48,954 bases of DNA from Eledone cirrhosa (Eukaryota), in contig CAXHJY010000002.1 in NCBI GenBank assembly GCA_964016885.1, forward strand, positions 1 through 48,954, read 5' to 3'. The translations under genes were made by a program, and so were the position numbers. The notes beneath the pieces were generated by a model. The model worked only from the letters and a program-made list of their open reading frames with translations. It was not told the DNA's origin and searched no databases. The stretch's first letter is position 1. Every line of letters begins with the position of its first letter. This document shows, one piece after another, positions 12,175-48,954 of this stretch.

Positions 12175-12264
12175 CCCGGTTACAAAAGATGTCGTGATCA
12201 CGAAATGCCCTCCGATTGTGATACCAATTTCTGTAGATCTCATTCGGTCGAGGAAAAACGATAG
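12175..12264 (-). CDS. GRL-A exon 3 (LSFFLDRMRSTEIGITIGGHFVITTSFVTG; TM7a region)
   Basis: ttcag| 90 nt |gtaata, phase 0. Same length and motif as GRL-C exon 3 (L.mFL..L....GvsvGG..VI..S.V). Confidence 0.88.
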
Positions 12265-14010: not shown

Positions 14011-14079
14011 TTTTATGGCAAATTCCTGTGGTAATGCCTGTATTGGTACAGCATATAGATGTTCTGCCAGCTGATGAAC
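14011..14079 (-). CDS. GRL-A exon 2 (VHQLAEHLYAVPIQALPQEFAIK)
   Basis: ttttctgctacgttag| 69 nt |gtaagt, phase 0. Same length as GRL-C exon 2 and homologous to it (IHGVVEYLYD...LK). Confidence 0.88.
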
Positions 14080-17434: not shown

Positions 17435-18478
17435 TTTCCCATTAATCTGGAGTCCAGTATGTATATAGAATACACAATATAGAGCTGTCATTATTCCCAA
17501 GAATAATTGTAACATGAAAGTGTTTAAATTTACGAACCCTTTCGAAATTTCAAATGATATCAAACAGCAGATTAGAACAAGCGTTATCGTTGTAAATAAC
17601 ATAGGAGTGGAAGTGGCTGAGTTTATAAATTTCAATAATCTACAAAGTCTATCATATTGAATAATTATCTGATACAATATTCGATTCCACTGAGCACTTG
17701 GATGAAATATTCCTGTACTTTTGATGTGCATTTCCCTGAAAATGTTTTCCAGCTTCTCAGACATATATTTAAATTCATCTATTATTATTCCCACTGTTAC
17801 AAAGAACAATGCACTGTTCGGAAATATGATTGAATAAACCACTATGTCTGTAATAAAATACATTACTAAAGCTAATGCAAATAAACTGTTCTCACGTGAT
17901 ATTGGGAAAGCAAAGACATCAATACAGTATGAACTATCTATGACCAATGGTAATAATAGATTGATAACAATATGTATTACTATACAAAAAGCGAATTCCA
18001 TTTTGATGGAAAACTTAGCCCATTTCTGACAACGAACTATATGTTTTCCATTTTGGTTTATTAGTAGATAATTTTCAAATTCACGAATTAATTCGTTCGT
18101 ACAATTTCTCTTCCAAAGCATAGTTATTGCTAATGCAGATGCAATAAACGTTTGGTATAACAGAAATAATTTCATGAGTAGACACAAAGTAATGCTAGTT
18201 GAATAGTTTGTTAAAATGAACCATAAAAAACGAGCCAGCTTAAATAGAAGAACTAAATACAATAAAGGAAGGAAACTGTATACAATGCGGTTTTTTATAC
18301 CAGACGATTTCCAAATTTCTAGATTAATTTTAGGAGGAAAATAATTAATAATGGAAAACCTTTGAATGTACTTCAATACTGAATTAAGAACTGTGTCTTT
18401 TATTTGTTTCAATTTATCTTCATCAATATTTATATTGAAAGATTCGCTTCCTTCAATTGTTGATACAGATGATTCCAT
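17435..18478 (-). CDS. GRL-A exon 1 (348 aa, TM1-TM6 of a gustatory-receptor-like 7TM protein)
   Basis: The ORF has about six hydrophobic segments and the GR-type pre-TM5 motif QYDRLCRLLKFINSATSTPML. First ATG is at 18478 (MESSVST). It ends GLQINGK|gtaagt at phase 0; the rest of the ORF-track protein is intron read-through. Confidence 0.88.
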
Positions 18479-25847: not shown

Positions 25848-25890
<43 letters not shown>

Positions 25891-26062: not shown

Positions 26063-26101
<39 letters not shown>

Positions 26102-26633: not shown

Positions 26634-26762
26634 CTAATATTCGGTTCGATTGCAAGCAAACAGCCTCATTACGTTATGTTTTTTAAATAACTACTGTCAT
26701 AGCTTTGTTCCAGCGGTGACACTGCTTGCAAACGAATCGAATATTATTATTATTACTAGTAG

Positions 26763-26946
26763 GCGGTGGATTGGCAGTATCGGTAGAGGGTCGGACGCCA
26801 TGCTTTCCAGCATAGTTACGTCCCTTTACGATCTGAGTTCAAATTCCCGCCGAGGTTGACTTTGCCTTTCATCCTTACGGGGTAGATAAAATAAAGTACC
26901 AGTAATGCACTGGGTAATTGCTGGCCGTGTGCCTAAAGTAGAAACA
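26763..26946 (+). mobile_element. Young SINE family 1 insertion with a 17-bp TSD, absent from duplicate unit B
   Basis: Flanked by attattattactagtag at 26746-26762 and 26947-26963. The empty site is at ~36939-36955. Confidence 0.92.
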
Positions 26947-28794: not shown

Positions 28795-29838
28795 TTTCCC
28801 ATTAATCTGGAGTCCAGTATGTATATAGATGACACAAGATAGAGCTGTCATTATTCCCAAGATTAATTGTAACATGAAAGTGTTTAAATTTACGAACTCT
28901 TTCGAAATTTCAAATGATATCAAACAGCAGATTAGAACAAGCGTTATCGTTGTAAATAACATAGGAGTGGAAGTGGCTGAGTTTATAAATTTCAATAATC
29001 TACAAAGTCTATCATATTGAATAATTATCTGATACAATATTCGATTCCACTGAGCACATGGATAAAATATTCCTGTACTTTTGATGTGCATTTCCCTCAA
29101 AATGTTTTCCAGCTTCTCAGACATATATTTAAATTCATCTATTATTATTCCTACTGTTACAAAGAACAATGCACTGTTCGGAAATATGATTAAATAAACC
29201 ACTATGTCTGTAATAAAATACATTACTAAAGCTAATGCAAATAAACTGTTGTCACGTGATATTGGGAAAGCAAAGACATCAATACAGTATGAACTATCTA
29301 TGACCAATGGTAATAATAGAGTGATTACAGTATTTATTACTATATAAAAAGCGAATTCCATTTTGATGGAAAACTTAGCCCATTTCTGACAACGAACTAT
29401 ATGTTTTCCATTTTGGTTTATTAGTAGATAATTTTCAAATTCACGAATTAATTCGTTCGTACAATTTCTCTTCCAAAGGGTAGTTATTGCTAATGCAGAT
29501 GGAATAAACGTTTGGTATAACAGAAATAATTTCATGAGTAGACACAAAGTAATGCTAGTTGAATAGTTTGTTAAAATGAACCATAAAACACGAGCCAGCT
29601 TAAATAGAAGAACTAAATACAATAAAGGAAGGAAACTGTATACAATGCGGTTTTTTATACCAGACGATTTCCAAATTTCTAGATTAATTTTAGGAGGAAA
29701 ATAATTAATAATGGAAAACCTTTGAATGTACTTTAATACTGAATTAAGAACTGTGTCTTTTATTTGTTTCAATTTATCTTCATCGATATTTATATTGAAA
29801 GATTCGCTTCCTTCAATTGTTGATACAGATGATTCCAT
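28795..29838 (-). CDS. GRL-B: duplicated long first exon (348 aa, TM1-TM6) with no exons 2-4 of its own
   Basis: Open frame, ATG at 29838, intact donor GK|gtaagt. 16 aa differences from GRL-A exon 1. Confidence 0.8.
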
Positions 29839-32142
29839 ATTTAAAAGAATGGTTGGTAAAGATAGCCAAACTATTGCACATTTGTATAAGCATAAAATAA
29901 ATTCTATGCACACTTCCAGAGAGATATAATTTCGGTCGTTGTGAGAATACAATTTTGAGGTTGAATATGATGTCAATAGATATTAACGATAATATTTATA
30001 CTCACTGTATAAATAGTAATAGTGGAAGCGTGTTACTATAACAATCATAATGTCGTGGGTTCTATTCCTGGACAGGGTTGTGTGTTGTGTTCTTGAGCAA
30101 ACTACGTCCTTCAATGTTGCTTCAGTATAGTCAGCTGAAAATGAGTACCAACAATAGCTGGGGCTTTAGACCTGCGATGATCAGATGTTTTGTCCAAGGG
30201 TGTTCTTGTACTCTCAGTCGCTTTACGCCACAAAACCGGGATAAACACCATCCAGACGAGCCTCCGGGATTGCGATACACTTTAACATTGTGATGAGCTG
30301 GCGTCCTGTCCAGGGGTAGTCTTGTATTCTCAGTGGCTTCACGCCACGAAACCAGAAAATGCACTAGTACAACGAGCCTCCTGGCTTATGACATACATAA
30401 GACTTACGTGTATAACTACTAAATATTATCTCTGAAAGATAAAACCTCACTCAGTTCGTAGATAGATTATAAGGTTTCCTAGTCGTGTTTATTGTGAAAG
30501 TATACATAATTGAATTTCCATTTACTGTAATGAATTTATAAGAGGTTTATTTGTATAGCTGGCTCATACACGATCTTTAGTAAAGTGATATATTGATTGT
30601 AGAGAAAAGCAGAGTTAATTATCAAACACATTATTTCAGAGCTGATTATTTAGTTAACTCACTCAACAGGAAACCAGAACATAATTACAAACAACAACAT
30701 ATATTTGGCTCCCTCGGTTGAGCACTCTATTGACTTATATTCAACATGCAGAAACAACACCTGAATATTTCTACAAAGAACATACCCGTACCTAGCAGGA
30801 AGACATACCTAAAACTTCTGATACAGAAAACGGATTCGTTCCTTAAAAGGTTGCGTTGGCGTGCCTTTTATTTCGATAACCAGGAAAAAGCGGACAATAA
30901 ACAGGATAAATTTGGGTTTAAAACTTATAATAACCCTCCGAGTAACCCAGCATTGCTACCCTTCGAAAACGATGTCTTGGAACTCATACGGAGTATCAAA
31001 TTTCGAAATAGGAGCAATTCCTTCCAGCAGGACCTGAAGAATAGAATTCGTTCTATTAAGGATTCTAATGCCATGCACATCCACTCCGACAAAACTGGCA
31101 ATCTATATCAAGTGGAGCATAGTACTTACCATCAATTGCTACATAATGTCGTAAATTAGGATTACTGGAAAACCAATCGGAGTGTCATTTATGACATCAA
31201 AGATGCTGGGTTTAAAATCACTTCTGAATTTAGGACCGGACTGAACCTCTGGACCCTATTTCTCCCCACTTTTACCCTGAAGGATCACAAACCGTATTTC
31301 GCCAACAACCCCTCTATTCGGCTAATTAACCCTACGAAGTCTGATTTAGGTAGACTTAGAAAAAGGATTTTAGATAGAATTATACCTGTAATTAGAAGCT
31401 TGGCTCCTGTTGCACTGTGGAATAATTCTTTCGCGGTGATTGATTGGTTCACGACCACCAACAATGACACGGGTAACCACACCAACATAAAAAACAGCCG
31501 GACCACCACCAGCACCGAAACCAACCCAAGGGGAAAACAAGGAAGGCTCTCCCACTCCCCTACCCCTCAAATTATACACATGGACAAAACCATAAATGCA
31601 CACTCAGACACAGATACACTCACAGCCACAGACCCTTTGTCTTCCAGTATTGAAGATGAAGGAAAACCCCAAAGTGCCAAAAAGCAAAAGAGAAAGCTCA
31701 CAAAAAGCCCCCACAAAACACAAAAACATACACAACAAAAAATACAAACACCATCAACGCAAACAGTTCCCCAATAACATCAACACCACTCTCACATTTC
31801 CTTAAACGCAAACAACCTAAACAAACACAAGAACAAATAAACACAGACACCTGAAATTGCAGACACCACACCTACAACAAACACAGACATACTCTAAACA
31901 ACACCATCAAAACCGTCACCACCACAGTCACTAAAACGAAAGCAAATAATGTCGCTCGATTTCTACAAAGAAATTCGAGACAGCTTTCCTCAGGACGTAG
32001 GAACCCCGAAAGTGAAACCCACATCCAGACTTTTAAAGGGGTTCCCAAAAGAAACCCCACCAACCATGGAGGTCGAACCACCCGACCTTCACAAGACTCC
32101 GGGAGGTAAGTAAACCTTCCCTCTCTCTTTTAGCTTGCCAAC

Positions 32143-34490
32143 ATGGCCATATTAAGAGTAGGAAGTTTAAATGTTCGTGGCCTGGGGTCACCCTGGAAGC
32201 AGGGTCGCCTGCACAACGACCTCAGATCTCTGGAAATGGATGTGATTGCCGTCAGCGAGACAGTAGGATTTACAACACGCGTGCACTAGCCCCCATTTTC
32301 GACGACTATCAGATCTTCGCATCTGTTAACAGGCCGGGTTGGGAGGTGCGGTAGTAGTACTGTTTAGGAAAGGCCTGGATCTCAAGGTAAGGTCGATCTT
32401 CCAGGACCCGGACGGTAAGTTGGTGGTCCTGGATGTGAGCAATAGCGAAGGGGGTGCCTTTAGACTGCTGGCCGTCTATGCCCCTACCGGGGCCGGACGA
32501 CCGGACTTCTTTAAGCGCCTGGAAGCCTTTCTGGGTATCAATCGAAAGTATTCGATAGGGTCAACCATCGGTATCTGAAGGCTGTCCTCAAAACAGCTGG
32601 CTTCGGCCCTGTCTTCAGAAGCTGGATATCTGCAATGCACAGCGGCATCTGCTCGATGGTCAAGGTTAATGGCCATCTCTCGGAACCGTTTCGTCTCCCG
32701 ATCGGTCCGTCAAGGGTGCCCTCTCTCTCTTGCCTTCTGTACGTAGTGATTCTCGAGCCTTTACTGCAGAAGCTGGAGCTGATGCAGGGCATCCCGCTCG
32801 AACCGGGACGCGGAAAGGCTGTGTCAGCTTATGCGGACGACATCACCGTGATGGTATCTGACACCTCGGAAATCGAGGTGGTCGGCACCTTATTGAAGGA
32901 ACATGAAAGGTTGATAGAAGCGAAACTTAACCCGGAAAAGTCGGTGGGCTTGCAGCTCGGCACCTGGAGAGGTAAGTCCATGTCATCCAACAGCGTCGTT
33001 GGGCGTGGACGGACGGAGCGGTAAAGTTGCTCGGGGCTTGGTTCGGACCAGACCTCCAAGTGGAAAAGAATTGGGGCGAGGTAACGAGCAGGGTAGCTAC
33101 TCTCACCAAAAAATGGGCTGCGAGGAAGCTATCACTGAAAGGTCGCACGTAGGTGGCGAATGCGTACACCGTATTCGTCATATACTACCGCCTGATGGTC
33201 GTGCCTTGCCCCCGTCTGCGCCTCACCAAGCTGGAACGACTCCTCTTCAAATTCTTGTGGAGAGGACAAGTCCCGTTGGTGAGGCGGTCCATCTGCTGCC
33301 AGCACCCTCTACACGGAGGACTGGGCATGCTGTGGCTAATGATGCGCAGACATGCGCTGAGGCTGCGCCATCTCCATATATTCTGCCTAAACGGTGAACA
33401 GGTGTGGTCGCCGTTTATCAGACGGGCCTTTCCGCAACTCGTTTCTTTGACTGAGCTGCAGTCCTGTGTCAAGAAGAGACCAAGACTGGGTGACTGGCAC
33501 CTGGAATGTTGCTAGGCACTCACTGCCTTCTACCAAGTGAGCAATGCGATCAGTAGAACTTCTACTCTCGAGTTCTATAGAGGATTAGTGGTGGGCAAGT
33601 CCGATGACGCAATCCGAGAGGCTTTGGGCTTCGATGAAGTGGAACTGACCAGTTTGTTCCGGAGGACTTTCGAGCCGGGGACGATGGATAACTTCCAGAA
33701 ATCCCTCGATTGTTCGGGATAAAATCTACAGGCACGGAAGTGCTGTCAGACGGACCTGCCCAAGATGCGCAGAGAGCGACGAAACCGTTCTGCACGCACT
33801 TGTTCAATGTCCGTGTATTACTGACTTGTGAAGTTATGTCGAACAGCTACTGTCGCATGTAGAACGGATCCAGCTATCGGTCGAGTCCATAGTGAAGGTC
33901 GACCCGCCGCTTTCCATTGGCCAGGAAGGACAGGCAATTTTCCTCTGTCTGGTGGCAGTTGCGAAAGAGGTTGTATAGTGGACCAGATTGAAAGGACTGA
34001 AGACAGACACTTTTCTCTTCGGCCAATCCCTCATCAACTTCTTCAAGTTTCACCTGGAAAGAAGATGAGGGTGGAGAGAGAAGTGCTGCCTCCCAGTACA
34101 TTTGCTGAAAGGTGGGTGAATGTGGCGAGAATGCCCCGTGTGAGTGGGCCTACTCTGACCATGCGCCTATAGGCTGGCTAATTCGAGGAGGAGAGGGGTG
34201 CTCTCCCCGGGTGCCCTAGAAGCGCAGGGTGGTTTTTTTTGGGGGGGGGGAGGTCCCTAAGTCACCCCTGGGTCGTCCACCCTCCTATTGTGGAATTTAT
34301 TATGTTATATTTATGCATAGTTTATTACATATATATTGTTATATCTTCATTGTTAAATTAGTCTTGCTATTATGCACTTTTGTTCGAGCTTATTGTAAAT
34401 CCCCCACTGTCCGTGTCTTTGTATTGTTTCCTAAATGTCGGCCCTTGTGGCCAATAAATGAAATCATTATTATTATTATTATTGTTATTA
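32143..34490 (+). mobile_element. Duplicate Tx1/L1-type LINE with a ~1.2-kb internal deletion
   Basis: The junction ctgggtat|caatcgaaag at ~32538 joins the equivalents of ~21191 and ~22390. Confidence 0.9.
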
Positions 34491-35738
34491 TGAGTTGGCA
34501 GTATCGACGCCATGCTTAGCAACATAGAGTTACGGCCCTTTATGATCTGAGTTCAAATTCCGCCGAGGTTAACTTTGCCTTTCATCCTTTCGGGGTCGAT
34601 AAAATAAAGTTCCAGTAATGTAGTGGGGTAAATGCTATCCTTGTGCCAACAGTAGAAACAATTATTACTATTATTATTGCTTTCATTCTAGTTATTTTTT
34701 CATGTATCTATAAATACTAGCGCACTCTATAATGTACACAGATCAGTATTCTAATGATTTGGTCGGGTATCAACTGTAGTTAAAATCGAGTAACGTAGCA
34801 TCTTGCGAACAGCGATTTTTAGACACACCGGACTAATGAAACAATTGTTAATACTTTGAATAAACCCTATTGTACTGTAGTGGTAGTGTAGCGGTAGTGT
34901 AGTGGTATTGTAGTGGCACTGTTGTGGTAGTGTAGTGGCATTCATCTTTACTATTGACATAAAATAGTGTCACAGCTCATAATAGGATCAGTGTGGCTCC
35001 CTTATATTTTTGTCAGTGTTGTCTTAGCACTGACACCTTTACTTCGTTTATGCAGGTAAAATTCCGTTATAAAGAATACCACTATAGCGAATTTTTCAGT
35101 ACACCGAATTTTTCTTTGTTTCTTATTACCCGAGGTAATAAGAAACAAAGGCTTAATTTGTTTCGGGCGATCTCGTAATAAAGAATTTCACTGTTTGTAT
35201 ACATATATATATAATGAAGATTTAATATAGAAAAAGCTTCTACAGAACTAGAACTGCTTTATTCGTATGAAGTCTGGAACTCACCGTCGAAATGGCAAGA
35301 GCTCAGCTCTCGGGCCCCGACCCTCTATTATATATGAACTCTATTATCCCAAGTATCGAGTACTCTGCTGATTAATGGCTTTGTTAGTGTAAAACTGCTA
35401 TAATCCACCCACGCGCACGCACACGCAAGCACGATGGCTGCCCCCTCATTATCGAGTTTGGCCATTGCGCAATATAACATTTAATTCTATCGTGCAATGC
35501 CTGTGCGTGAAGAATATTTTTAAAGTGAAGAAAGACTGTGCACTGAGCCAATCCCACTCTCTGAGCGACTAGCCGTGACCCGAAAAGAAGAAAAGATCAA
35601 CATCGTCGGTAACTACCGAGTCGCAGGTTTTATGTCGGAGTTATCCCAGTTTCCTGAGTTGCCTTCTCCTAGAAGAATGCCCTGACAAAGGCTAGGGGTC
35701 CTTCACTCCCAGTGGTTTAACATACATATATATACACG

Positions 35739-35886
<148 letters not shown>

Positions 35887-36058
35887 AGTAGAACACTGGA
35901 AGGTAATAACCGTAATGGTAGACCACTCAGTCCATGGGACGAGTTAGGTTGAAGTGGTAACACAACAGTTAGTTCACCATACTGAGAACAATTGTTTCAC
36001 CTTCCGCTAAGGTGAAACAATTGTTCTCGGTATGGTGAACTAACTGTTGTGTTACCAC

Positions 36059-36102
<44 letters not shown>

Positions 36103-37436
36103 TTTCTGCAGATGATGGTCAATCGAACAGGAATTTCGAAACTGGAAATAGGTAGTAAACTAACCACTACCATGCTGATCGATCTTCCACGATCAATCGA
36201 CCCTCTGAAATGATCGTAAATCAGTGAACTAATTAACTAACTACTTCTGACTTCCGTCTTGTTTTCATTGTTCTACAGCGAGAGAGAGAGAGATGTTTAT
36301 AAAACACAACGCAGTCAGACTGTATATGAACGAATGTTTTATTAACTCGTCCTTTTGGCCATCGGTATACATCAGCTGATAAGTTTATAACATTGTTCAC
36401 GACAATATTGAAGGAAGCATATGTGTTCAGGCAGCAGGAAAAAAGCATACATAAGATATAATCATGAATTACAGAATAAAACGATATAGAGGTAGATTTC
36501 AGTTCAAACTTCATATTTAGAGTGAAAAAAATAATGATGTGGAAGTGAAAATATTAAAAACCAAATTAGAATTTCTTTTTTTGCTCTAACATAGCGGATA
36601 CGTAAATGTATTCGTGAGTTTTATGCCGAATAATAATAATTGTTTCTACTCTTGGTACAACACCAGTAATTATCCCAGTGCATTACTGATGCTTTATTTT
36701 ATCGATCCCGTAAAGATGAAAGGCAAAGCTAACCTCGGCGGGATTTGAACTCAGAACGTAAAGCGCCATAACTCTATGCTGCAAAGTATGGCGTCTGACG
36801 TTCTACGGATACTGCCAACCCACCGCTCTAATATTCGGTTCGATTACAAGCAAACAGCCTCATTACGTTATGTTTTTTAAATAACTACCGTCATAGCTTT
36901 GTTCCAGCGGTGACACTGTTTGCAAACGAATCGAATATTATTATTATTACTAGTAGCAGAAAAACCACCCTTCGTGGGTTATCTGCTAGCATGTGTAGTG
37001 TGTATATTGATATTATACGGAAATATACATGCATGTAGATATGATACGTCAAATATAATCGTAATTGACAATATGCACAGAAATTGAAGAGAGACTGTGT
37101 TACACTGTCTTCTGTAATCAGTAAAGTAATCCATGATACATTTTAAAAAGACGATATTATATATAAACTGCATTACGGTGAAATGTTGTGAAAACAAAAA
37201 GGAGAAAATTAGCGACAGAAATATAAACGTTATGATATAACGATGGAAATATATGAATGTTTATATAAGTGATATGATATAGCATCCGTTATATCATACG
37301 GGAAGTATTGACATTTGAAAATTTTAAAAGAAGTGAATCTTAAAATAAGCAATCATTATATATCAGAATATTTATGTTTAATCAACAGCTACGAAATTTA
37401 GTACATAAATTATGCAATATTCATTCATTATTTATT

Positions 37437-37623
37437 CGGTGGATTGGCAGTATCGGTAGAGGGTCGGACGCCATGCTTTCCAGCATAGCTACGTCTCTTT
37501 ACGATCTGAGTTCAAATTCCCGCCGAGGTTGACTTTGCCTTTTCATCTTCACGGGGTCGATAAAATAAAGTACCAGTAATGCACTGGTAAATTGCTGGCC
37601 TTGTGCCTAAAGTAGAAACAATT
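37437..37623 (+). mobile_element. SINE family 1 at the right boundary of the duplication
   Basis: Matches the family consensus and shares its first ~25 nt with the 16092 and 27444 SINEs. Confidence 0.9.
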
Positions 37624-37804
37624 ATTTATTCAAAGTAATCCAACTTATTTTACTAACGGGATAAAAAAAAATACCCAGGACGCAGTCCCGCACTCCTCCC
37701 TTTATTATATTATGATTCGATATATAACTAACGAATACAGTGAAAATATTGTTTTCCCCAGTTCCTGCATAATATGATTTGAAATCATCCTGATCACTCC
37801 TGGG

Positions 37805-37867
37805 TCAATGTGTGTCTTGCTTGGTCTGTATGATAACAATCACATATGTAAGCAGGTTGCAAAATAT
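37805..37867 (-). CDS. GRL-C exon 4 (IFCNLLTYVIVIIQTKQDTH*; TM7b pore helix)
   Basis: Polypyrimidine tract + atag| at phase 0. Contains TY-hhhhh-Q, the signature of the GR/OR/GRL superfamily. Stop TGA at 37805-37807. Confidence 0.9.
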   Translation of the reverse strand: MFCNLLTYVIVIIQTKQDTH

Positions 37868-38516
37868 CTATGGATATAATTGGAAGAGAAAAAGAATTGA
37901 TGTATTACATACGAATGTAGATGTTACAAATGATGAAAAATAAATATTTAATGTTAAAAATAATATAGATTTCTAATTTCTAATTTAGACTCGATGCCAG
38001 AATATTTGGAGGAACGGCAAAGTTGAGTGTATTCTTGGGTCACCCTTAATCGTCTTTTCTCTGCTTATTAATTTTCCAGATTTTTTTCTAACCACACCCT
38101 CTCGTATCTCATCCCTGCTTATTATGTTTTGGTAATCTATCTCCGGAAAAATTTTATTTTAAATGGTAGCATTCTTGCGATAATTAATTTCCTTAGACAT
38201 TAAAAAGCATTATATATGACAAAAAAGAACAGTACAAAAAACCCATACGTTTTAAAAGAAACAGGATGGGTTGGGGCCCAATATATAAACTAAACGATCA
38301 GTTCTTGTTTTTAAAAAAACCCCAAGGGAGACAACCTACAAATATTACCGATTTTCCGACACACCGCATATTCCAACTCCACCCCTATTATTTAGGACCC
38401 GAGAGTATCAACACCAGTACTTGATTGATACTTTATTTTATTGACTCTGGTAGGATGAAAGGCACAGTTGATCTCTGCGGGATTTGAACTCAGAATGTAA
38501 AGAACTAGATATTAAG

Positions 38517-40140
38517 AACGATATTAAGGTGATGAAAACGATATTAAGGTGATGGAAACGATATTAAGGTGATGGAAACGATATTAGGGTGATGGAAACG
38601 ATATTAAGGTGATGAAAACGATATTAAGGTGATGAAAACGATATTAAGGTGATGAAAACGATATTAGGGTGATGGAAACGATATTAAGGTGATGAAAACG
38701 ATATTAAGGTGATGAAAACGATATTAAGGTGATGAAAACGATATTAAGGTGATGGAAACGATATTAAGGTGATGGAAACGATATTAAGGTGATGAAAACG
38801 ATATTAAGGTGATGAAAACGATATTAAGGTGATGAAAACGATATTAAGGTGATGAAAACGATATTAAGGTGATGAAAACGATATTAAGGTGATGGAAACG
38901 ATATTAAGGTGATGGAAACGATATTAAGGTGATGAAAACGATATTAAGGTGATGAACACGATATTAAGGTGATGGAAACGATATTAAGGTGATGGAAACG
39001 ATATTATGGTGATGGAAACGATATTAAGGTGATGGAAACGATATTATGGTGATGAACACGATATTAAGGTGATGGAAACGATATTAAGGTGATGGAAACG
39101 ATATTATGGTGATGAAAACGATATTAAGGTGATGGAAACGATATTAAGGTGATGGAAACGATATTATGGTGATGGAAACGATATTATGGTGATGAACACG
39201 ATATTAAGGTGATGGAAACGATATTAAGGTGATGGAAACGATATTATGGTGATGAAAACGATATTAAGGTGATGGAAACGATATTAAGGTGATGGAAACG
39301 ATATTAAGGTGATGAAAACGATATTAAGGTGATGAAAACGATATTAAGGTGATGGAAACGATATTAAGGTGATGAAAACGATATTAAGGTGATGAAAACG
39401 ATATTAAGGTGATGGAAACGATATTATGGTGATGAACACGATATTAAGGTGATGGAAACGATATTAAGGTGATGGAAACGATATTAAGGTGATGGAAACG
39501 ATATTAAGGTGATGAAAACGATATTAAGGTGATGGAAACGATATTAAGGTGATGAAAACGATATTATGGTGATGAAAACGATATTAAGGTGATGGAAACG
39601 ATATTATGGTGATGAACACGATATTAAGGTGATGGAAACGATATTATGGTGATGAACACGATATTAAGGTGATGGAAACGATATTAAGGTGATGGAAACG
39701 ATATTAAGGTGATGAAAACGATATTAAGGTGATGAAAACGATATTAAGGTGATGGAAACGATATTAAGGTGATGGAAACGATATTAAGGTGATGGAAACG
39801 ATATTAAGGTGATGAAAACGATATTAAGGTGATGGAAACGATATTAAGGTGATGAAAACGATATTAAGGTGATGGAAACGATATTAAGGTGATGAAAACG
39901 ATATTAAGGTGATGAAAACGATATTAAGGTGATGGAAACGATATTAAGGTGATGGAAACGATATTAAGGTGATGGAAACGATATTAAGGTGATGAAAACG
40001 ATATTAAGGTGATGGAAACGATATTAAGGTGATGAAAACGATATTAAGGTGATGAAAACGATATTAAGGTGATGGAAACGATATTAAGGTGATGAAAACG
40101 ATATTAAGGTGATGGAAACGATAGTAAGGTGATGGAAACG
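38517..40140. repeat. 20-bp minisatellite, ~81 units
   Basis: Unit aacgatattaaggtgatg(g/a)a with a few recurrent variants and no spacers. Confidence 0.98.
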
Positions 40141-40154
40141 ATTATTATATTTAC

Positions 40155-40244
40155 CGTAAAAACAGAAGATGGCTTTATTACACACCAACCACCGACACTG
40201 ACACCCATTGAGGTTGTTGTTAATTGGTTGAGAAACATCGTCAG
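40155..40244 (-). CDS. GRL-C exon 3 (LTMFLNQLTTTSMGVSVGGWCVIKPSSVFT)
   Basis: tttcttccctatttctcttcacag| 90 nt |gtaaat, phase 0. Confidence 0.92.
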
Positions 40245-40284
40245 CTGTGAAGAGAAATAGGGAAGAAATAGATAAATTTAATAT

Positions 40285-40871
40285 TAATAACTACAATATC
40301 ACACTACAATATTTTGTACGTGGTTAGTTAATAACTACAATATCACACTACAATATTTTGTACGTGGTCAGTTAATAACTACAATATCACACTACAGTAT
40401 TTTGTACCTGGTCGATTAACTGGTAACTACAATATCACACTGCGGTATTTTGTACCTGGTTAGTTAATAACTACAATATCACACTACAGTATTTTGTACC
40501 TGGTCAATTAACTGGTAACTACAATATCACACTACAATATTTTGTACCTGGTCGATTAACTGGTAACTACAATATCACACTGCGGTATTTTGTACCTGGT
40601 CAGTTAATAACTACAATATCACACTACAATATTTTGTACCTGGTTAGTTAATAACTACAATATCACACTGCGGTATTTTGTACCTGGTCAGTTAATAACT
40701 ACAATATCACACTACAATATTTTGTACCTGGTTAGTTAATAACTACAATATCACACTACAGTATTTTGTACCTGGTCAATTAACTGGTAACTACAATATC
40801 ACACTGCGGTATTTTGTACCTGGTTAGTTAATAAATACAATATCACACTGCGGTATTTTGTACCTGGTCAA
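40285..40871. repeat. 44/48-bp minisatellite, ~13 units
   Basis: Unit ataactacaatatcacactacaatattttgtacctggttagtta, with a 4-nt longer variant. Confidence 0.96.
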
Positions 40872-41045
40872 TAAAAATAAAAGTTACTTAAGATGTGTGC
40901 AACATGTTATATCTGTTTATCTGTTTATGGAAACCTATGAGCAATACATGGCTGCATGCTGCAGCTACACCATTTTATTTACATAATGGATTGAATTTAT
41001 GACTGATCTCCCGAAGATGTTTATTCTAATCCATCTCGTACTTAC

Positions 41046-41114
41046 CTTAAGGTTTGTTTCGTTTGTCAAACCTTCAAAATTTGTATCGTACAGGTATTCA
41101 ACAACACCGTGGAT
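41046..41114 (-). CDS. GRL-C exon 2 (IHGVVEYLYDTNFEGLTNETNLK)
   Basis: tatgtatcatag| 69 nt |gtaagt, phase 0. Confidence 0.9.
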
Positions 41115-41257
41115 CTATGATACATAAATAAGTTGAAATATTATATATTTCATAGGAAATATTTAGCATAATATCATGGATACGTAGCTTAGTGGTTAGG
41201 GTATTGAGTTCGACTCTTAGACCGGGCCATGTGTTATGTCCATCAGCAAACCATTTT

Positions 41258-41448
41258 AATAACATTATTTCAGTCGTATTGCACCTTAAATATGTCAATA
41301 CAATTACAGGATAAAAACTATGATTTGTAGAGCTTATTTATTTAAAGTATATCAAGGTGTAATTATATTAAAAGTAAGCATTGCAAGCAAAAATACATTT
41401 TAAAAGAAAAAATATAATTTTACCTAAACAATTTTACCTATATTTTTG

Positions 41449-41482
<34 letters not shown>

Positions 41483-41981
41483 AATGTATGTATAGTATAT
41501 TTGGCAATGTACTGTATGTTTAATTAAAAACATTTAGAAGACTATTCGCTATGAGTTTTAAAGTAGTGACTGTATCACTTAATTATTCTCAGAAAAAACA
41601 ACAGAGAGCGACCGACAGGCAGTCTGTTTCTCGCTTGTGAGTGTTTATCAAGACCACACACTCAGTTGCCTTTGCCGAGAATTATAGAGGCTGGATTCTT
41701 ATAGTATTCCAGTAATAATCAGGAGCTGATTATACAGAGCGATTGCAGGTCCAGCAAAAATTAGGTATTAGTAGTGGTCTTGATAAACGCTCACAAGCGA
41801 GAAACAGACTGTCTGTTGGCCACTCTCTCTTGTTATTTGCCGAGAATAAGTAAGTGACATAGTCACTACTTTAAAACTCATAGCGAATGGTCTTCTAGAT
41901 GTTTTTAATTAAACATACAGTACATTGCCAAATATACTATACATACATTCATGTATACATCGCTGTTTCAGAGCACCAATC

Positions 41982-42044
<63 letters not shown>

Positions 42045-42387
42045 ATGTATGTAAAAGGTAAACAGAAATAACAACACAATCAGTACAGTTTATGGAAGGA
42101 ATATATTAGGTTAACGCTTGAAATAGCAGGAAGAGGGTCTTAACGTTTCGGACGCTAGTTCTTTATCAGAAGAAAGAATGAGAAATAAGATAGATTGAGA
42201 GCGGGTTGGAATTGGAAAAAATGTCTTTAGATAAAAATAACATATATATATATTTATTATAAGAACAGATTAAAGTTTAAGCAAAGAATCGTTGCTTTCA
42301 CCCTTTTAAGCTCTAAAAAATATAGTTTTTATCCTGTAACTGTATTGATCTATTTAAGGTGCAATATGGCTGAAATAATGTTATTTT
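41258..42387. repeat. Nested inverted repeats in GRL-C intron 1 (outer ~41258-41336/42307-42385; inner ~41483-41657/41774-41949)
   Basis: Reverse-complement matches read directly. The inner arms carry hammerhead motifs. Confidence 0.88.
41773..41824 (+). ncRNA. Hammerhead motif with a U3:A8 core (diverged inverted copy at 41608-41657, minus strand)
   Basis: agtggtc-TTGATAA-a-cgct(caca)agcg-a-GAAA-caga(ctg)tctg-TT-ggccact. All three stems pair. Confidence 0.68.
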
Positions 42388-42418
42388 AGTCTCTCTCTCT
42401 CTCTCTCTCTCTCCTCTC

Positions 42419-42486
<68 letters not shown>

Positions 42487-42494
42487 ACCCTCTC

Positions 42495-42532
<38 letters not shown>

Positions 42533-42635
42533 AAAGTTCTATTTAAAATTGTTGGGATACAATTGTTGGTATCCCTGAAATATGTATAATGAAATAGATA
42601 TGGTTTTATAAATATAGTTTCCATTTATTAATATC

Positions 42636-42675
<40 letters not shown>

Positions 42676-42960
42676 GCACATAATTATAGTTATATCATTT
42701 CAGATTATATAATAATTTTGTTTAAATCTCATTAATTATTCCGTTAATATAATTATTTTCTTTGATCAAAATAGAAAATTAACCACAGTGCATTAAATAT
42801 AAATAGTCTTTGCATTAAGAATTTAGGGGGGTGCGGGCGCTTTTTCATCATGTAATGTGGGCTGTTTAGGAAATGATTAAATAAAAATTAAATAAATGGT
42901 TGAATAAAATGGTGTCCCCCTTAAAAAGTCAATATTGCAGAGTCAATATTTCTCCTTCAC

Positions 42961-43270
42961 TTTAGTGGTTAGACCGTTGGCTTGTAATCATGAGGCTGTG
43001 AGTTCGATTCTCGGACAGTTGATGCATTGTGTCCTTGAGAAGTCACTTTATTTCACGTTGCTCCAGATTACGCACTTGTAGAGATGAGTTGTGACGTCAC
43101 TGGTACCATGTTGTATCGGCCTTTCTCTTTCCCTTGGAGTACATTGGTGGCGTGGAGAGGGGAGACTACTATGCATGGGCAACTACTGGTATCCATAAAT
43201 AACCTTGCTCGGACTTGTGCCTCGTAGGGGAACTTTCTCGGCACAAATCCCATGGACATTTGTGACCGAG
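42961..43270 (+). mobile_element. SINE family 2
   Basis: tagtggttag...gagttcgattc...gtccttgagaag...tttatttcacgttgctccag. Confidence 0.75.
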
Positions 43271-43406
43271 GGGGGGGGGGGCGTGAGGGTATTTATCCTT
43301 TACATTTTAAAAGAATGTAATGGCTTTACTTCCGGTAAAAACAATGCTGGTTATTATCTTTTATAGATTATTTACAGAAGAATTATAGAAATGTTCTAAT
43401 ACTTAC

Positions 43407-44420
43407 ATTTTCATGTAGAGCCAATCCTTTATAAATTATTATACTGCATACCAGTAACGTTACTGGTAGTAAAATATATATACATACTAGTTCTGCTTCG
43501 AAAAAACCAGGATTAAAAAATACATATAAACAGGCACATATGCTTAGGATCATATTCATCATAATTGCAGCTATGTTATACTGTATAGTTGGGTTTGCAT
43601 GTTCCAATAAACTGCACATTTCCTCATGTTTAGTACAATAATACATAATCATTTCGTTTCGGTACATGCACTCAGCATTGAATTGTTTATTTGCCTCTGT
43701 ATTGAAAACTTCGTGGAATTTGTCTTTCAAAACGTCAAATTCTATAGTCAGATATTGAATTAAGAACCAACTAAAGTCGTATTGGTTTAAAATTTGCAAA
43801 ATAACCAATATGGATGTGAAGCAGTTGAAACAAAGTAACAAAGAAACAAAATCATTATTAGTATGAAGAGGGTAAAAAAATAGCTCGAAAATGTTATATT
43901 GATTGCCCCAAAATAATGGTAAAATAAGTGTCACAAGTGGAAAAATTACAGATATTAGCATAAGTTCGAATATATATTGAATCTTCTTGATTTTTATCAA
44001 ACTGGCCAGCTTAGCATCACAATTATCACACACACACAAAATTGTATGGTTCATAAAATTTTGTTTGACTTCGTTATATTGTTTGTTTCTATTAAATATT
44101 AAGATAGAAGTGAACCAATAGTAAAATTTCCATTGCATCACCATCAAAACAGCCACTGATTTGTTTGATTTCTTATTTGTTAATGCATGCAAAAAAAATA
44201 GGGCAGAACGCACGAAGTCAGCAAGCATGCAAATGAGACTCATCCAGTACAAAATACACTTGCACCTTTTTGTGTGACTTAATGTGGACCAAGCAAATAA
44301 TGAAGTTCTCACATTGAAGTTGGCTATGTTAAATCTCTCCCAAAATTTAAATATATCACTCAGCCTATTTCCAACGATATTCTCTCTAACTGCACCGAAA
44401 TTCTTATGATTGTCTGTCAT
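43407..44420 (-). CDS. GRL-C exon 1 (338 aa, TM1-TM6); spliced protein 411 aa
   Basis: ATG at 44420 (MTDNHKN). Multiple TM segments and the motif KHEEMCSLLEHAN. Ends GLALHEN|gtaagt at phase 0, the same position as in GRL-A/B. Confidence 0.9.
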
Positions 44421-44581
44421 ATTTATTTCAAATCTGCCAAAATAATACAAAAGGAACAGATATATAGATATGATTTATCAGAAAAATTACCGTTTTAAGC
44501 ATTTAAAATTGTCATATTAAAAGCGAACATTCTTGACGTGTGGAATAAACCAAAATTATGTTTATATATATATATATATAT

Positions 44582-44890
44582 AGGGAGGGAGGGGCATGTA
44601 CCTCTGTAGGGGGGGGGGCAGCTTTTCAGGACAGCTCGTACTGCATTGGGTCCCACTGAGACTCAGCTCTCACCTGCGGCCACACCCTGGTAAACCGCAT
44701 TGGCTGGCGGGCCGAACCAGGTTGAGGGTAGCCGGACGAGTCTGAATCCCCCCCCCCCCCCCCAGGTGAGTTAGATAGGCGATACCTGCCCCTGCATGCG
44801 AAGACTGGACCCGGCGGAGTGAGTGGTGGAGGACAACATCGTCCCAACGGTCACTACGGCGGCGACAGCAAAACGGTGTGGAGCGCTATA
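44582..44890 (+). mobile_element. GC-rich fragment resembling a non-LTR retrotransposon 5' UTR
   Basis: Abrupt GC-rich block after (TA)n with a long imperfect stem-loop (~44666-44730). Family not established. Confidence 0.35.
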
Positions 44891-44934
44891 TTTTCCTATT
44901 CTTTTTTTCTTTTTTATTATTGTTGTCAATTACA

Positions 44935-45150
44935 GGGCGGTGGGTTGGCAGTATCGGTAGAGGTTCGGACGCCATGCTTTGCAGCAAAGAGTTACGGCCC
45001 TTTATGATCTGAGTTCAAATCGCGCCAAGGTTAACTTTGCCTTTCATCCTCATGCGGTCGATAAAATAAAGTACCAGTCACGCACTGGGGTCGATTTAAT
45101 TGACTTTCCCCTCCCCCAAAATTGCAGGCCTTGTGCCTAAAGTAGAAACC
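44935..45150 (+). mobile_element. SINE family 1 (longer variant)
   Basis: Matches the family consensus, with an extra 'ggggtcgatttaattgact' segment. Confidence 0.85.
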
Positions 45151-45169
45151 GTTATTGTTGTCATTTACT

Positions 45170-45650
45170 AACATATAGAAACGTACATAAAAAAAACTCA
45201 TCTCAAGAATAATCTCTAAAAATATTGGTCCACATACCACCAGCATAACATCTAATATCAAACACAACACTGTAACTACATCACAACCAGCCGGTCGACA
45301 CTCTACAACACACCAACAAAACGTAAATAGACCAACATCCCAGCCTGATTCAAGCCATATATCAGACTGTAACTTAGTGGCTTTCCTGTGTAGTGGTTCT
45401 AAGTGTATATTGCCACCTACCAGATAAATGCCCACTACAGAACAAATACCTTGAATCCAATTTAGTGTATCTATGTACCATAAAATAGAGTGACCAGGAA
45501 CGGAACGGTACTACATATGTTCTACAGCAAAAGAATTCAAGAAACGCTGGTATGTACATAGGCACTCGATTAAAAAGTGCAAACTCAAAAACACAATGAC
45601 TCTGGCCAATAAAGTCTGGCAGCTTGCGGATAAGAAACAAGAATACCAAA
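45170..45650 (+). pseudogene. Degenerate PLE GIY-YIG endonuclease fragment
   Basis: Frameshifted translation gives DKCPLQNKYLESNLVYLCTIK ... YICSTAKEFKKRWYVHRHS. Confidence 0.65.
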
Positions 45651-45651
45651 T

Positions 45652-46165
45652 AGTGGGGGGCTTACAATAAGCTCGAGCAAAAGTGCACTATGTCAAGACT
45701 AATTTAACAATGAAGATATAAAAAATATATAAAATAAATTATGCATAAATATAACAAAATAAATTCCTCAATAGGTAACTCAGGTACCCCACCAATCCTG
45801 AACTACCCTGCGCTTCTAGTGCACCCGGAGATAGCACCCCTCTCCTCATCAAATTAGCCAACCTATAGGCGCATGGTCAGAGGAGGCCAACTTACATGGG
45901 GCATTCTCGCCATATTCACCCACCTTTCAGCACTTCTCTCTCCACCCTCACCTTCCTTTCCAGGTGAAACTTGAAGAAGTTGATGAGGGATTGGCCGAAG
46001 AGAAAAGTGTCTGTCTTCAGTCCTTTCAAGCTGGTCCACCATACAACCTCTTTCGCTACTGCCACCAGACAGGAAAATTGCCTGTCCTTCCTGGTCAAAG
46101 GAAAGCGGCGGGTCGATCTTCACTATGGACTGGGCCGATAGCCGGATCCATTCTACACGCGACAA
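45652..46165 (-). mobile_element. 5'-truncated copy of the Tx1/L1-type LINE (3' end)
   Basis: Diverged reverse complement of ~23700-24260. Confidence 0.88.
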
Positions 46166-46341
46166 TAGCAATATAATGACAACAACAGTAATAATAAATA
46201 ATCTTATTAACAGTGGATAATTTAATTGACTCCCTATCAAGTTTTGTAACCCAGACAATAATTTCCACAGGATATTGGCTATCAAAAGAGTTGCTTTCTG
46301 TAATTAATAATAGAATCCTAGAGTAAGAAAATGGACAAAAT

Positions 46342-46711
46342 AATTGTTTCTACTTTTGGCACAAGGCCAGCAATTACCCAGTACATTACTGGTACTTTAT
46401 TTTATAGACCCCCGTAAGGATGAAAGGCAAAGTTAACCTCGGCGGGATTTGAACTCAGAATGGCAAATCTTAACTATAATAAAGGAAGGTCTGCGGGATT
46501 GCGTCCAGAATATATTTTTTACCCCGTTTGTAAAATATGTTGGATTACTTTGAATAAATAATTGTTTCTACTTTTGGCACAAGGCCAGCAATTATCCCAG
46601 TGCATTACTGGTACTTTATTTTATCGACCCCGAAAGGCAAAGTGAACCTCGGCGTGATTTGAACTCAGACCGTAAAGGGACGTAACTATGCTGGAAAGCA
46701 TGGCGTTCGAC
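46342..46711 (-). mobile_element. Two partial SINE family 1 copies (46342-46465, 46560-46711)
   Basis: Match the family consensus. Confidence 0.85.
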
Positions 46712-46747
46712 TCAATAATGATATATAAGCTAGTTTCGAGAAACAGC

Positions 46748-46763
46748 CTGTGGTAACGATGTT

Positions 46764-46832
<69 letters not shown>

Positions 46833-46844
46833 TGGCAACGATGT

Positions 46845-46889
<45 letters not shown>

Positions 46890-47018
46890 GGCAACGCTGT
46901 TAGGGGAGAGAGAGAGACAATGGCAAGGTTGTTAAGAGAGAGAGAGAGAGAGATAGAGAGAGACAATGGCAAGGTTGTTAAGAGAGAGAGAGATAGAGAG
47001 AGACTGTGGCAAGGTTGT

Positions 47019-47071
<53 letters not shown>

Positions 47072-47245
47072 ATAGGTTGAGAGAGACTATGGCAACAATG
47101 TTAGGAGAGAGAGAGAGAGACTGTGGCAACGCTGTTAGGGGAGAGAGAGAGACAATGGCAAGGTTGTTGAGAGAGAGAGAGAGAGAGAGAGATAGAGAGA
47201 CTGTGGCAAGGTTGTTAGGAGAGAGAGAGAGAGAGAGAAGAGAGA
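46748..47245. repeat. Compound (GA)n array punctuated by a recurrent 'ctgtggcaaggttgttag'-like motif
   Basis: About 11 variants of the motif, separated by GA runs of variable length. Confidence 0.9.
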
Positions 47246-47534
47246 AGTATAATTCTGAGTTTATATACCTTTGTTCGATGGCAAGGTTCAGTGGACTGTC
47301 AAGGAGGTCGGTACGACTAATATGTGCGTTGTAAAGAAAGATACTTATAACTACACACACATACACACTCACACACTCACACTCTCCCTCTTCAAGTACA
47401 TACACGCAAGCACAACACACAAGCACTCACACACACACATATATATATATAAATAGATAATATATATATACACATAATATATATACATATAATAACATAT
47501 ATATATATAAAAACATATAAACCTAACTTTATCG

Positions 47535-47576
<42 letters not shown>

Positions 47577-47761
47577 TCTCACTATATATATATATATACA
47601 CGGATACCCCCCCCCCCACTCTCAAGCGTTAAACTAATAATGATAACATTTGTACTGTACTGCCTCTTCGATTATCTGTTTTTTGTTCTCTGTTTACTTA
47701 AATAAAAATATATATATTGTGAAAAGTGGAATGGGTACAAAACAGAGAGGCAGTACGAACA

Positions 47762-47767
<6 letters not shown>

Positions 47768-47792
<25 letters not shown>

Positions 47793-48109
47793 TATATATA
47801 TAAAATATATATATTATATATATATATATATATAAAATATATATATTATACTCATTTACCTGTTTCAGTCATCCGGCTGAGGCCATGCTGGGGCACCGCC
47901 CTTATAATATATATATTATATATATATATAATATATATACAAAAAATATATTATATATATATATATTATATATATATTATATAATATATACATATATTAT
48001 ATATATAAATATATTATATATATATATATATTATATATATATATATATAATATATAAATATATTATATATATATATATTATATATATAATATATATAAAA
48101 AAAATATAT

Positions 48110-48143
<34 letters not shown>

Positions 48144-48239
48144 ATATATAATTATATAAATATATTATATATATATATATTATATATATATATATAAAAA
48201 AAAATATTATATATATATATATTATATATATATATATAT

Positions 48240-48270
<31 letters not shown>

Positions 48271-48328
48271 TATATTATATATATATATATATAATATATA
48301 AATATATTATATATATATATATAATATA

Positions 48329-48372
<44 letters not shown>

Positions 48373-48954
48373 ATAGAATATATACATATATTATATATAT
48401 ATATATATAATATATAAATATATTATATATATATATATAATATAAATATATTATATATATATATATAATATATATATATTATATATATATATAGAATATA
48501 TACATATATTATATATATATATATATAATATATAAATATATTATATATATATATATAATATATATATATATAATATATATATATATATATAATATATATA
48601 TATATAATATTTTTATATATATATTATATATAATATATATATATATATTATATATAATATATATATTATATATATATATAATATATATATATAATATATA
48701 TATATAATATATATATATTATATATAATATATATATATATTATATATATACAATATATTATATAATATATATATATATATTATATATATATATATATAAT
48801 ATATATATATATAATATATATATATTATATATATATATACTATATATATATTATATATATATATTATATATATATATATATTATATATACATATATATAT
48901 ATACTATATATATAATATATATATAATATATATATATTATATATATATATATAC
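47768..48954. repeat. Degenerate (TA)n field with a short SINE/LINE-like scrap at ~47850-47903
   Basis: Near-continuous TA repeats. Confidence 0.95.

What the first reader, a model, noticed from the sequence alone, without database searches (positions are those of the whole stretch)
37805..44420. Complete 411-aa GRL-C gene model reconstructed from four exons
Seen: 338+23+30+20 codons, all introns GT-AG and phase 0, no stops, spread across introns full of minisatellites and palindromes. A polypyrimidine-cag acceptor sits ~13 nt upstream of the ATG (ttttgtattattttggcag|atttgaaataaatATG), suggesting an additional non-coding 5' exon. Inference: this is the best intact candidate in the window for functional testing.
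Basis: partly seen in the sequence, partly recalled or inferred. Interest (0 to 1): 0.72.

Follow-up and report, generated by a model that had tools for sequence, protein, structure and literature searches.

The report
Intact octopus taste-receptor-like channel gene
This is an intact four-exon gene, most likely from an octopus, of the family of insect taste and smell ion channels; it likely encodes a chemical-gated channel subunit, and it shares with two other octopus relatives a water-liking amino acid where the channel's gate is usually oily, but neither its expression nor its function has been shown.

Summary
Confirmed. On the minus strand, exons 44420-43407, 41114-41046, 40244-40155 and 37867-37805 (338+23+30+20 codons, three GT-AG phase-0 introns) give a stop-free 411-aa protein. 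The joins have outside support. A 408-aa Octopus sinensis protein aligns 174/406 with no gap at any join. A profile of outside homologues picks all four exons from 2,037 peptides. Neighbouring paralogue A has the same 23- and 30-codon exons. The O. sinensis stand-in passes Pfam 7tm_7 and folds like insect OR/GR channels. The gene is therefore an animal gustatory-receptor-like (GRL/7TMIC) gene with the family's three 3' phase-0 introns. Its pore motif TYVIVIIQT has Thr at the usual F/L/M gate, as in both Octopus homologues. The acceptor 13 nt before the ATG is real but untested. No RNA, tetramer model or whole genome was available. It is the only complete copy in the window. Copy B is a first exon without tail exons of its own, possibly spliced onto A's. 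This scan noted octopus GRL arrays before on other DNA; eight literature searches showed no paper on them. New member of a known kind.

The parts
43407..44420 (-). GRL-C exon 1, 338 codons: N-terminus and predicted helices S1-S6 (the likely ligand-binding body)
   Evidence: 135/342 identical to O. sinensis XP_036361416.1, E 4e-78, both starting at the same Met
41046..41114 (-). GRL-C exon 2, 23 codons: cytosolic end of S6 and linker
   Evidence: 13/23 identical to the O. sinensis protein without gaps; same length in paralogue A
40155..40244 (-). GRL-C exon 3, 30 codons: predicted S7a, hairpin loop and start of S7b
   Evidence: 18/30 and 20/30 identical to the two Octopus proteins; profile E 1.3e-8
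37805..37867 (-). GRL-C exon 4, 20 codons + TGA: pore helix S7b with the motif TYVIVIIQT (residues 398-406; Thr at the gate position)
   Evidence: 12/20 identical to the O. sinensis protein
44434..44455 (-). Candidate splice acceptor (pyrimidine tract + CAG) 13 nt before the ATG; would imply a non-coding 5' exon, which was not located
   Evidence: 1 of 6 strong sites among 288 AGs
37701..37706 (-). First AATAAA downstream of the stop, candidate poly(A) signal
   Evidence: use not shown
38517..40147 (.). 20-bp minisatellite, 81.5 copies, filling most of intron 3 and starting 8 nt into it
40284..40870 (.). 44-bp minisatellite, 13 copies, in intron 2
41475..41957 (.). Palindromic high-copy element (MITE-like, label inferred) in intron 1
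   Evidence: summed contig depth 6e4-2.5e5 against 0-5 on exon 1
17435..18478 (-). Paralogue A exon 1, 348 codons, donor GTAAGT; 20% identical to C exon 1
14011..14079 (-). Paralogue A exon 2, 23 codons, phase 0
   Evidence: score 37 against C exon 2, next best 3, among 99 candidates
12175..12264 (-). Paralogue A exon 3, 30 codons, phase 0
   Evidence: score 54, next best -2, among 87 candidates; profile E 2.6e-5
28795..29838 (-). Copy B: open first exon with intact donor and no tail exons of its own; recent duplicate of A exon 1, candidate alternative first exon

Best explanation
An intact four-exon gustatory-receptor-like (GRL / 7TMIC) gene, most likely of an octopod, that likely encodes one subunit of a tetrameric, ligand-gated cation channel and so would be a candidate chemoreceptor. 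Shown: the open spliced frame, the conserved exon structure, homology to Octopus 7tm_7 proteins, and the pore motif. Inferred from insect GR structures (PMC12635824, section 5): the long first exon would build S1-S6 with an outward-facing ligand pocket. The three short exons would supply the cytosolic anchor (end of S6, S7a) that holds four subunits together, and the pore helix S7b. Ligand binding would tilt S7b so that Gln405 replaces the gate residue and cations pass. Here the gate position is Thr406 rather than F/L/M; I take it to act like the similarly shaped Val468 gate of MhOr5, possibly with altered leak or selectivity. Transcription probably starts in a non-coding exon spliced to the acceptor 13 nt before the ATG (inferred).
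For: Gene model with no stops. Gap-free joins against a full-length O. sinensis protein: 131/333, 13/23, 18/30, 12/20 per exon. Blind profile recovery of all four exons. Same 23/30-codon phase-0 exons in paralogue A. The stand-in passes Pfam 7tm_7 at 31.7 bits against a cut-off of 26.6, and the O. bimaculoides homologue at 35 bits. Atlas model of the stand-in (pTM 0.72): TM 0.75-0.76 over 370-382 residues to GR clusters. Own model of the stand-in (pLDDT 55.5, pTM 0.53): all 20 rows listed among ranks 1-23 are insect OR, GR or Orco, 9 at E<=0.001, first unrelated row at E 0.52. Exon 1 of C itself: nearest Atlas clusters are 7tm_6/7tm_7, score 0.95. Inner segments of 55, 38, 68 and 54 aa carry 23 K+R; outer loops of 10, 20 and 6 aa plus the tail carry 4 (hand-set limits). 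The tail (anchor and pore) is better kept than exon 1, 59% against 39%. C keeps 39 of 57 sites fixed in the other three homologues, much like the O. sinensis protein's 39 of 54, so there is no sign of decay.
Against: C exon 1 alone, and exons 2, 3 and 4 alone, hit no Pfam family, so the family call for C rests on transfer from a 43%-identical stand-in. The model of C exon 1 is poor (pLDDT 47, pTM 0.35) and its fold matches are not significant (best E 0.67; best Z 7.5 at rmsd 8.6). The fourth motif position departs from F/L/M. Some residues fixed in the other three homologues are changed in C (W200, P212, W251). A sensory role is not established for non-arthropod GRLs; a cnidarian GRL acts in body patterning (PMC5850775, passage citing Saina 2015).
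Confidence: 0.7

Rival explanations
1. C is not a stand-alone gene. Exons 2-4 are a shared constant tail, and exon 1 is only the nearest of several alternative first exons, the others lying upstream beyond the window. The channel mechanism is unchanged; the locus would make many receptors.
For: The two Octopus homologues are 65/148 identical before the first join and 71/74 after it, the pattern of different first exons on one tail. Copy B is an open first exon with an intact donor and no tail of its own. The design is described for insect GRs with three shared short exons (PMC6175461, passages). Earlier scan notes report such arrays in octopus (unchecked).
Against: No further first exon in the 4.5 kb upstream of C (profile search). 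C has its own tail, only 59% like the Octopus one, and A has another (35% and 47% for exons 2 and 3).
Confidence: 0.3
2. A real channel subunit with a non-sensory or internal job (development, internal nutrient, heat or light sensing) rather than tasting the outside world.
For: NvecGrl1 acts in early body patterning (PMC5850775, passage). [quoted passage not shown]
Against: Tandem, fast-diverging paralogues (C against A 20%) and recent duplication of a first exon fit a chemoreceptor family better than a conserved developmental gene (inference).
Confidence: 0.2
3. A recently silenced copy: the frame is still open but the gene is no longer expressed or no longer works.
For: W200, P212 and W251, fixed in three homologues, are changed in C. 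The introns are loaded with repeats, one array starting 8 nt into intron 3.
Against: All four exons are open and all six splice sites canonical despite 57% protein divergence from the nearest full-length homologue. Loss of conserved sites is no greater than in the annotated O. sinensis protein.
Confidence: 0.12
4. A G-protein-coupled receptor or another unrelated seven-helix protein.
For: Only the number of hydrophobic helices.
Against: Long basic loops on the N-terminal side; 7tm_7 hits and OR/GR fold of the stand-in, with the first GPCR row at rank 32, E 1.2; the GR motif and three 3' phase-0 introns.
Confidence: 0.01

Closest known systems
Octopus sinensis XP_036361416.1 (LOC118764606, uncharacterized, 408 aa) and Octopus bimaculoides A0A0L8FL56 ('Gustatory receptor', 224-aa fragment)
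   Same: Same length and start, collinear across all three exon joins, same CxCDxC and YCTKHxEMC segments (the first not covered by the fragment), same TY-hhhhh-QT motif.
   Different: C is only 39-41% identical in exon 1 and about 59% in the tail, whereas the two Octopus tails are 96% identical to each other; C is thus a separate tail set or comes from a more distant octopod. Neither database entry has a tested function that I saw.
Insect gustatory and odorant receptors (BmGr9 8vc2, DmGr43a 8jm9, DmGr64a 8jme, MhOr5 7lic, AgamOR28 8v3c, Orco 6c70)
   Same: Predicted fold of the stand-in (TM up to 0.63; 0.75-0.76 to Atlas GR models), inverted topology, split S7, and TY and Q of the S7b motif.
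   Different: 12-16% sequence identity; Thr at the gate position where GRs have Phe and MhOr5 has Val; no ligand known; tetramer not tested.
Animal GRL genes with three 3' phase-0 introns, e.g. Blattella germanica Gr51-94 and Gr418-430, including alternatively spliced Gr60a-m (PMC6175461, passages)
   Same: One long first exon plus three short phase-0 exons; tandem copies; a 5'-UTR intron is also reported there for some (intronless-class) GRs.
   Different: For C only one first exon is visible; alternative splicing is suggested only for A/B and by the two Octopus proteins, and there is no RNA support here.
Cephalopod chemotactile receptors (CRs; PMC11526382, passages)
   Same: Candidate role only: lineage-expanded ionotropic chemosensors of octopus.
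   Different: Unrelated family, derived from acetylcholine receptors; no sequence or fold relation appeared in any call.

Membership tests
Animal GRL / 7TMIC (criteria of PMC7746228 section 5 and bioRxiv 2023.08.30.555482 passages) | Length about 350-500 aa | tested here: met
   411 aa
Animal GRL / 7TMIC | Best homologues are GR/GRL family members | tested here: met
   3 hits among 1.84 billion representatives; the two that carry the tail pass PF08395; Atlas neighbours of exon 1 are 7tm_6/7tm_7
Animal GRL / 7TMIC | Seven transmembrane helices, intracellular N-terminus, inner loops longer than outer | tested here: met
   Hydropathy and hand-set helix limits: inner 55/38/68/54 aa with 23 K+R, outer 10/20/6 aa plus tail with 4. 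A prediction; no dedicated topology program was available.
Animal GRL / 7TMIC | OR/GR fold with long S4-S6 and split S7 | tested here: met
   Met on the 43%-identical O. sinensis stand-in. For C exon 1 alone the model was too poor to judge.
Animal GRL / 7TMIC | [quoted passage not shown] | tested here: met
   the first two are conserved in paralogue A; feature as stated in PMC6175461. Exact positional homology to insect introns was not aligned.
Animal GRL / 7TMIC | TM7 motif (T/S)Yhhhhh(Q/K/E)(F/L/M) | tested here: inconclusive
   T, Y, five hydrophobic residues and Q are met; the last position is Thr in C and in both Octopus homologues. PMC7746228 calls the motif diagnostic but not definitive, with divergent members known.
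Pfam 7tm_7 (PF08395) | Score at or above the gathering cut-off of 26.6 bits | tested here: inconclusive
   The spliced protein was not scanned; single exons give no hit; the homologues score 31.7 and 35 bits
Animal GRL / 7TMIC | Tetrameric assembly around an S7b pore | not tested
Animal GRL / 7TMIC | Ligand-gated cation conductance | not testable with these tools
   Needs electrophysiology
Alternatively spliced GR loci (Gr60a-m type) | Several long first exons spliced onto one set of three short exons | tested here: inconclusive
   For C no second first exon within 4.5 kb upstream; sequence beyond the window and RNA were not available. The pattern fits A/B and the two Octopus proteins.

The most novel reading that the evidence does not exclude
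Octopods have a second, unreported family of ionotropic chemosensors beside the chemotactile receptors: GRL channels built from many fast-evolving sensor exons and several distinct pore-exon sets (C's, A's and the Octopus one). The branch that includes C has swapped the hydrophobic gate for a polar Thr, giving a leaky, differently selective or partner-dependent channel used for taste in suckers or the olfactory organ.
Probability: 0.25. Interest if true: 0.75.

Novelty: new member of a known kind. Interest (0 to 1): 0.42.

Why it matters
GRLs are known across animals, molluscs included, so the family is not new. The cephalopod chemosensation passages I read discuss chemotactile receptors, ionotropic receptors and GPCRs (PMC11682238, PMC11526382), and eight searches of the held library showed no paper on octopus GRLs; most subscription papers are not held. 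The public protein sets are nearly empty for this branch: 3 representatives at 50% identity and 2 named proteins. A complete, well-supported coding model makes two questions testable: whether a non-arthropod GRL is a chemically gated channel, and what a Thr at the gate does. It is a useful reagent rather than a new mechanism, and this scan has noted octopus GRL arrays before on other DNA.

Tried and rejected
No whole genome is held, so family size and the sequence flanking the window could not be examined. No RNA holder listed; this is no evidence on expression. Contigs of three runs of one sample, possibly the source of the assembly and so not independent, match exon 2 and 645 of 1014 nt of exon 1 without a difference; the rest had no cover. 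An apparent 2-nt gap in exon 1 is a 31-nt chance piece of a 673/676-nt contig with loose ends on both sides; rejected as a frameshift allele. A shorter exon 3 (63 nt, donor GTAATA) was rejected because both homologues and paralogue A need 30 codons. The word-based protein search with exon 1 found nothing among 669 candidates; two later ones returned only the two Octopus proteins. Sequence search of solved structures with the stand-in: 0 hits. The AlphaFold model of exon 1 on an 8-row alignment was too poor to use; OR/GR chains topped both fold searches but not significantly. The wide structural search on the stand-in model could not be run, machine busy. Exon 4 of paralogue A was not found among 306 minus-strand candidates below 12175, nor by tblastn with the O. 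sinensis last exon. Positive selection between A and B first exons: 16 changed against 5 silent codons, pN/pS about 0.85, no departure from neutral (p 0.79). Rfam: 0 matches in 36500-48954. Saina 2015 was not held and Robertson 2015 was not read; both are cited only through other papers. No supplements were read; intron alignments and GRL lists in the supplements of PMC5850775 and the Benton/Himmel papers could already include cephalopod sequences. My first script had two internal exons off by one base, corrected.
Full report
Observation. On the minus strand, exon 1 (44420-43407, 338 codons), exon 2 (41114-41046, 23), exon 3 (40244-40155, 30) and exon 4 (37867-37805, 20 plus TGA) are joined by GT-AG introns of 2292, 801 and 2287 nt, all phase 0, and give 411 residues without a stop. 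Exon 1 stayed open in 0 of 20,000 base shuffles. The donors rank 5, 1 and 9 of 375 GT sites on a generic matrix recalled from memory. The introns hold a 20-bp x 81.5 and a 44-bp x 13 minisatellite and a palindromic element at 41475-41957 that is very high-copy in genomic contigs. An AATAAA lies about 100 nt after the stop.

Independent support for the joins. A search of 1.84 billion representatives with exon 1 found 3 proteins: an unnamed exon-1 read-through, Octopus sinensis XP_036361416.1 (408 aa) and Octopus bimaculoides A0A0L8FL56 (224 aa). The spliced C protein aligns with the O. sinensis protein at 131/333, 13/23, 18/30 and 12/20 per exon, with no gap at any join and the same start Met. 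That protein is itself a database gene model, and I did not see its RNA support. A profile built only from these three outside proteins was run over 2,037 six-frame peptides of the window. It gave seven hits at E<=0.002: all four C exons, the first exons of copies A and B, and A exon 3; the next was at E 1.4. Paralogue A, only 20% identical in exon 1, has exons of the same 69 and 90 nt in phase 0, the best non-self matches among 99 and 87 candidates (37 against 3, and 54 against -2). The organism is most likely an octopod: both named homologues are Octopus, and earlier notes on this genome say the same (unchecked).

Family. Single exons of C hit no Pfam family, and the spliced protein was not scanned. 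The two Octopus proteins pass 7tm_7 (31.7 and 35 bits, cut-off 26.6). The Atlas places C exon 1 beside 7tm_6/7tm_7 clusters (0.95), and its model of the O. sinensis protein matches GR models at TM 0.75-0.76 over 370-382 residues. My model of that stand-in was middling (pLDDT 55.5, pTM 0.53), yet all 20 rows listed among ranks 1-23 are insect OR, GR or Orco structures, 9 at E<=0.001, and the first unrelated row is at E 0.52. The model of C exon 1 was poor (pLDDT 47). OR/GR chains headed its searches without significance, and I give that little weight. Hand-set helix limits give inner segments of 55, 38, 68 and 54 residues with 23 Lys/Arg, against outer loops of 10, 20 and 6 plus a 6-residue tail with 4, as expected for an intracellular N-terminus. 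[quoted passage not shown]

Mechanism. From insect GR structures (PMC12635824, section 5 read whole): four subunits surround a pore lined by S7b; S7a and the cytosolic parts of S4-S6 form the anchor; ligand binds in an outer pocket of S1-S6; on opening, the motif Gln replaces the Phe gate. Mapped on C (inferred), exon 1 is the sensor body and exons 2-4 finish the anchor and supply the pore. The tail is better conserved than exon 1 (59% against 39%), as that division predicts. The motif in C is TYVIVIIQT (398-406). The consensus is (T/S)Yhhhhh(Q/K/E)(F/L/M); its last residue is part of the gate, and its mutation alters selectivity in Orco (PMC7746228, section 5 read whole). Thr stands there in C and in both Octopus proteins, so it is a trait of this branch, not decay. 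MhOr5 has Val at the gate, and Thr has the shape of Val (general knowledge), so the simplest reading is a working but more polar gate.

Is it alive? No RNA run was listed, which says nothing either way. C keeps 39 of 57 sites fixed in the other three homologues, close to the 39 of 54 kept by the O. sinensis protein; losses include W200, P212 and W251. An apparent 2-nt gap in genomic contigs proved to be a 31-nt chance match. The acceptor 13 nt before the ATG is one of 6 strong sites among 288 AGs, so a non-coding first exon is plausible but unlocated; A and B have only weak sites there (8-9 of 16 pyrimidines).

Surroundings. C is the only complete copy in the window. A has exons 1-3 (18478-17435, 14079-14011, 12264-12175); its exon 4 was not found and may lie left of the window. 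B (29838-28795) lies in a tandem duplicate, 16092-27622 against 27444-37615, 95-99% identical, whose ends fall on copies of one repeat of about 180 bp, as unequal crossing-over would give (inferred). B is open, keeps its donor, differs from A at 22 of 1044 nt and has no tail exons, so it could splice onto A's tail. The two Octopus proteins show the same logic: 65/148 identical before the first join, 71/74 after. Such loci are well described in insects (PMC6175461 and PMC6080948, passages), and four earlier notes of this scan report them in octopus on other DNA (unchecked; they prompted this reading). For C no second first exon was seen in the 4.5 kb upstream, but the window ends there. C's tail is 59% like the Octopus tail, and A's exons 2 and 3 are 35% and 47% like it, so this locus carries two distinct tail sets.

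Novelty. GRLs are already reported in Mollusca (PMC7746228, passage) and annelids (PMC11730519, passages), and one homologue is already labelled 'Gustatory receptor' in UniProt. Eight searches of the held library showed no paper on cephalopod GRLs. Passages of PMC5850775, PMC11526382, PMC6408891, PMC11682238, PMC6150509 and bioRxiv 2023.08.30.555482 that I searched name none. Subscription papers and all supplements were not seen. Verdict: a real, well-supported gene and a new member of a known family. Its value is as a ready test case for octopus chemosensation and for a Thr gate. Interest 0.42.

Noticed in passing
window 16092-27622 and 27444-37615: Tandem duplication of about 10-11 kb (95-99% identical, with a 1.2-kb indel near 21191-22388) whose ends fall on copies of one SINE-like repeat of about 180 bp at 16092, 27444 and 37437; it copied GRL-A exon 1 to make B. 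A falsely duplicated haplotype is not excluded.
   Followed up: partly
window 17435-18478 against 28795-29838: A and B first exons differ at 2.1% of bases against about 1% in the flanks of the duplicate (Fisher p 0.005), but the replacement/silent ratio is neutral (16:5 codons, p 0.79); changes cluster at residues 165-173 and 314-337.
   Followed up: partly
window below 12175, minus strand: No exon 4 for paralogue A within 12 kb; it is either beyond the left end of the window or lost.
   Followed up: yes
window 43407-44420, C residues about 129-134 and 262-269: Cytosolic Cys/His clusters (CxCDxC in the first inner loop; C-x2-H-x3-C in the second) are shared with the Octopus homologues, and C269 also with A and B; a possible metal site or lipidation site, untested.
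   Followed up: no
window 2674-6393, minus strand: Open 1239-codon frame with reverse-transcriptase-like and GIY-YIG-like motifs, Penelope-like by recalled motifs; Pfam gave no hit.
   Followed up: partly
window 41258-41336 and 42307-42385: A second pair of inverted arms (79 nt, 90%) encloses the intron-1 palindrome, suggesting nested mobile elements.
   Followed up: no
window 8022-8345, 9110-9420 and 8660-8770: Further long near-perfect palindromes seen by eye below paralogue A exon 3.
   Followed up: no
window 19374-20306, 21646-23366, 30734-33515, 45863-46303: Broken LINE-like reverse-transcriptase fragments, most of them inside the duplicated block (label from recalled motifs).
   Followed up: no
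P0002 against P0003: The O. sinensis and O. bimaculoides proteins share a 96%-identical tail but 44%-identical first-exon parts, the signature of alternative first exons on one conserved tail.
   Followed up: partly
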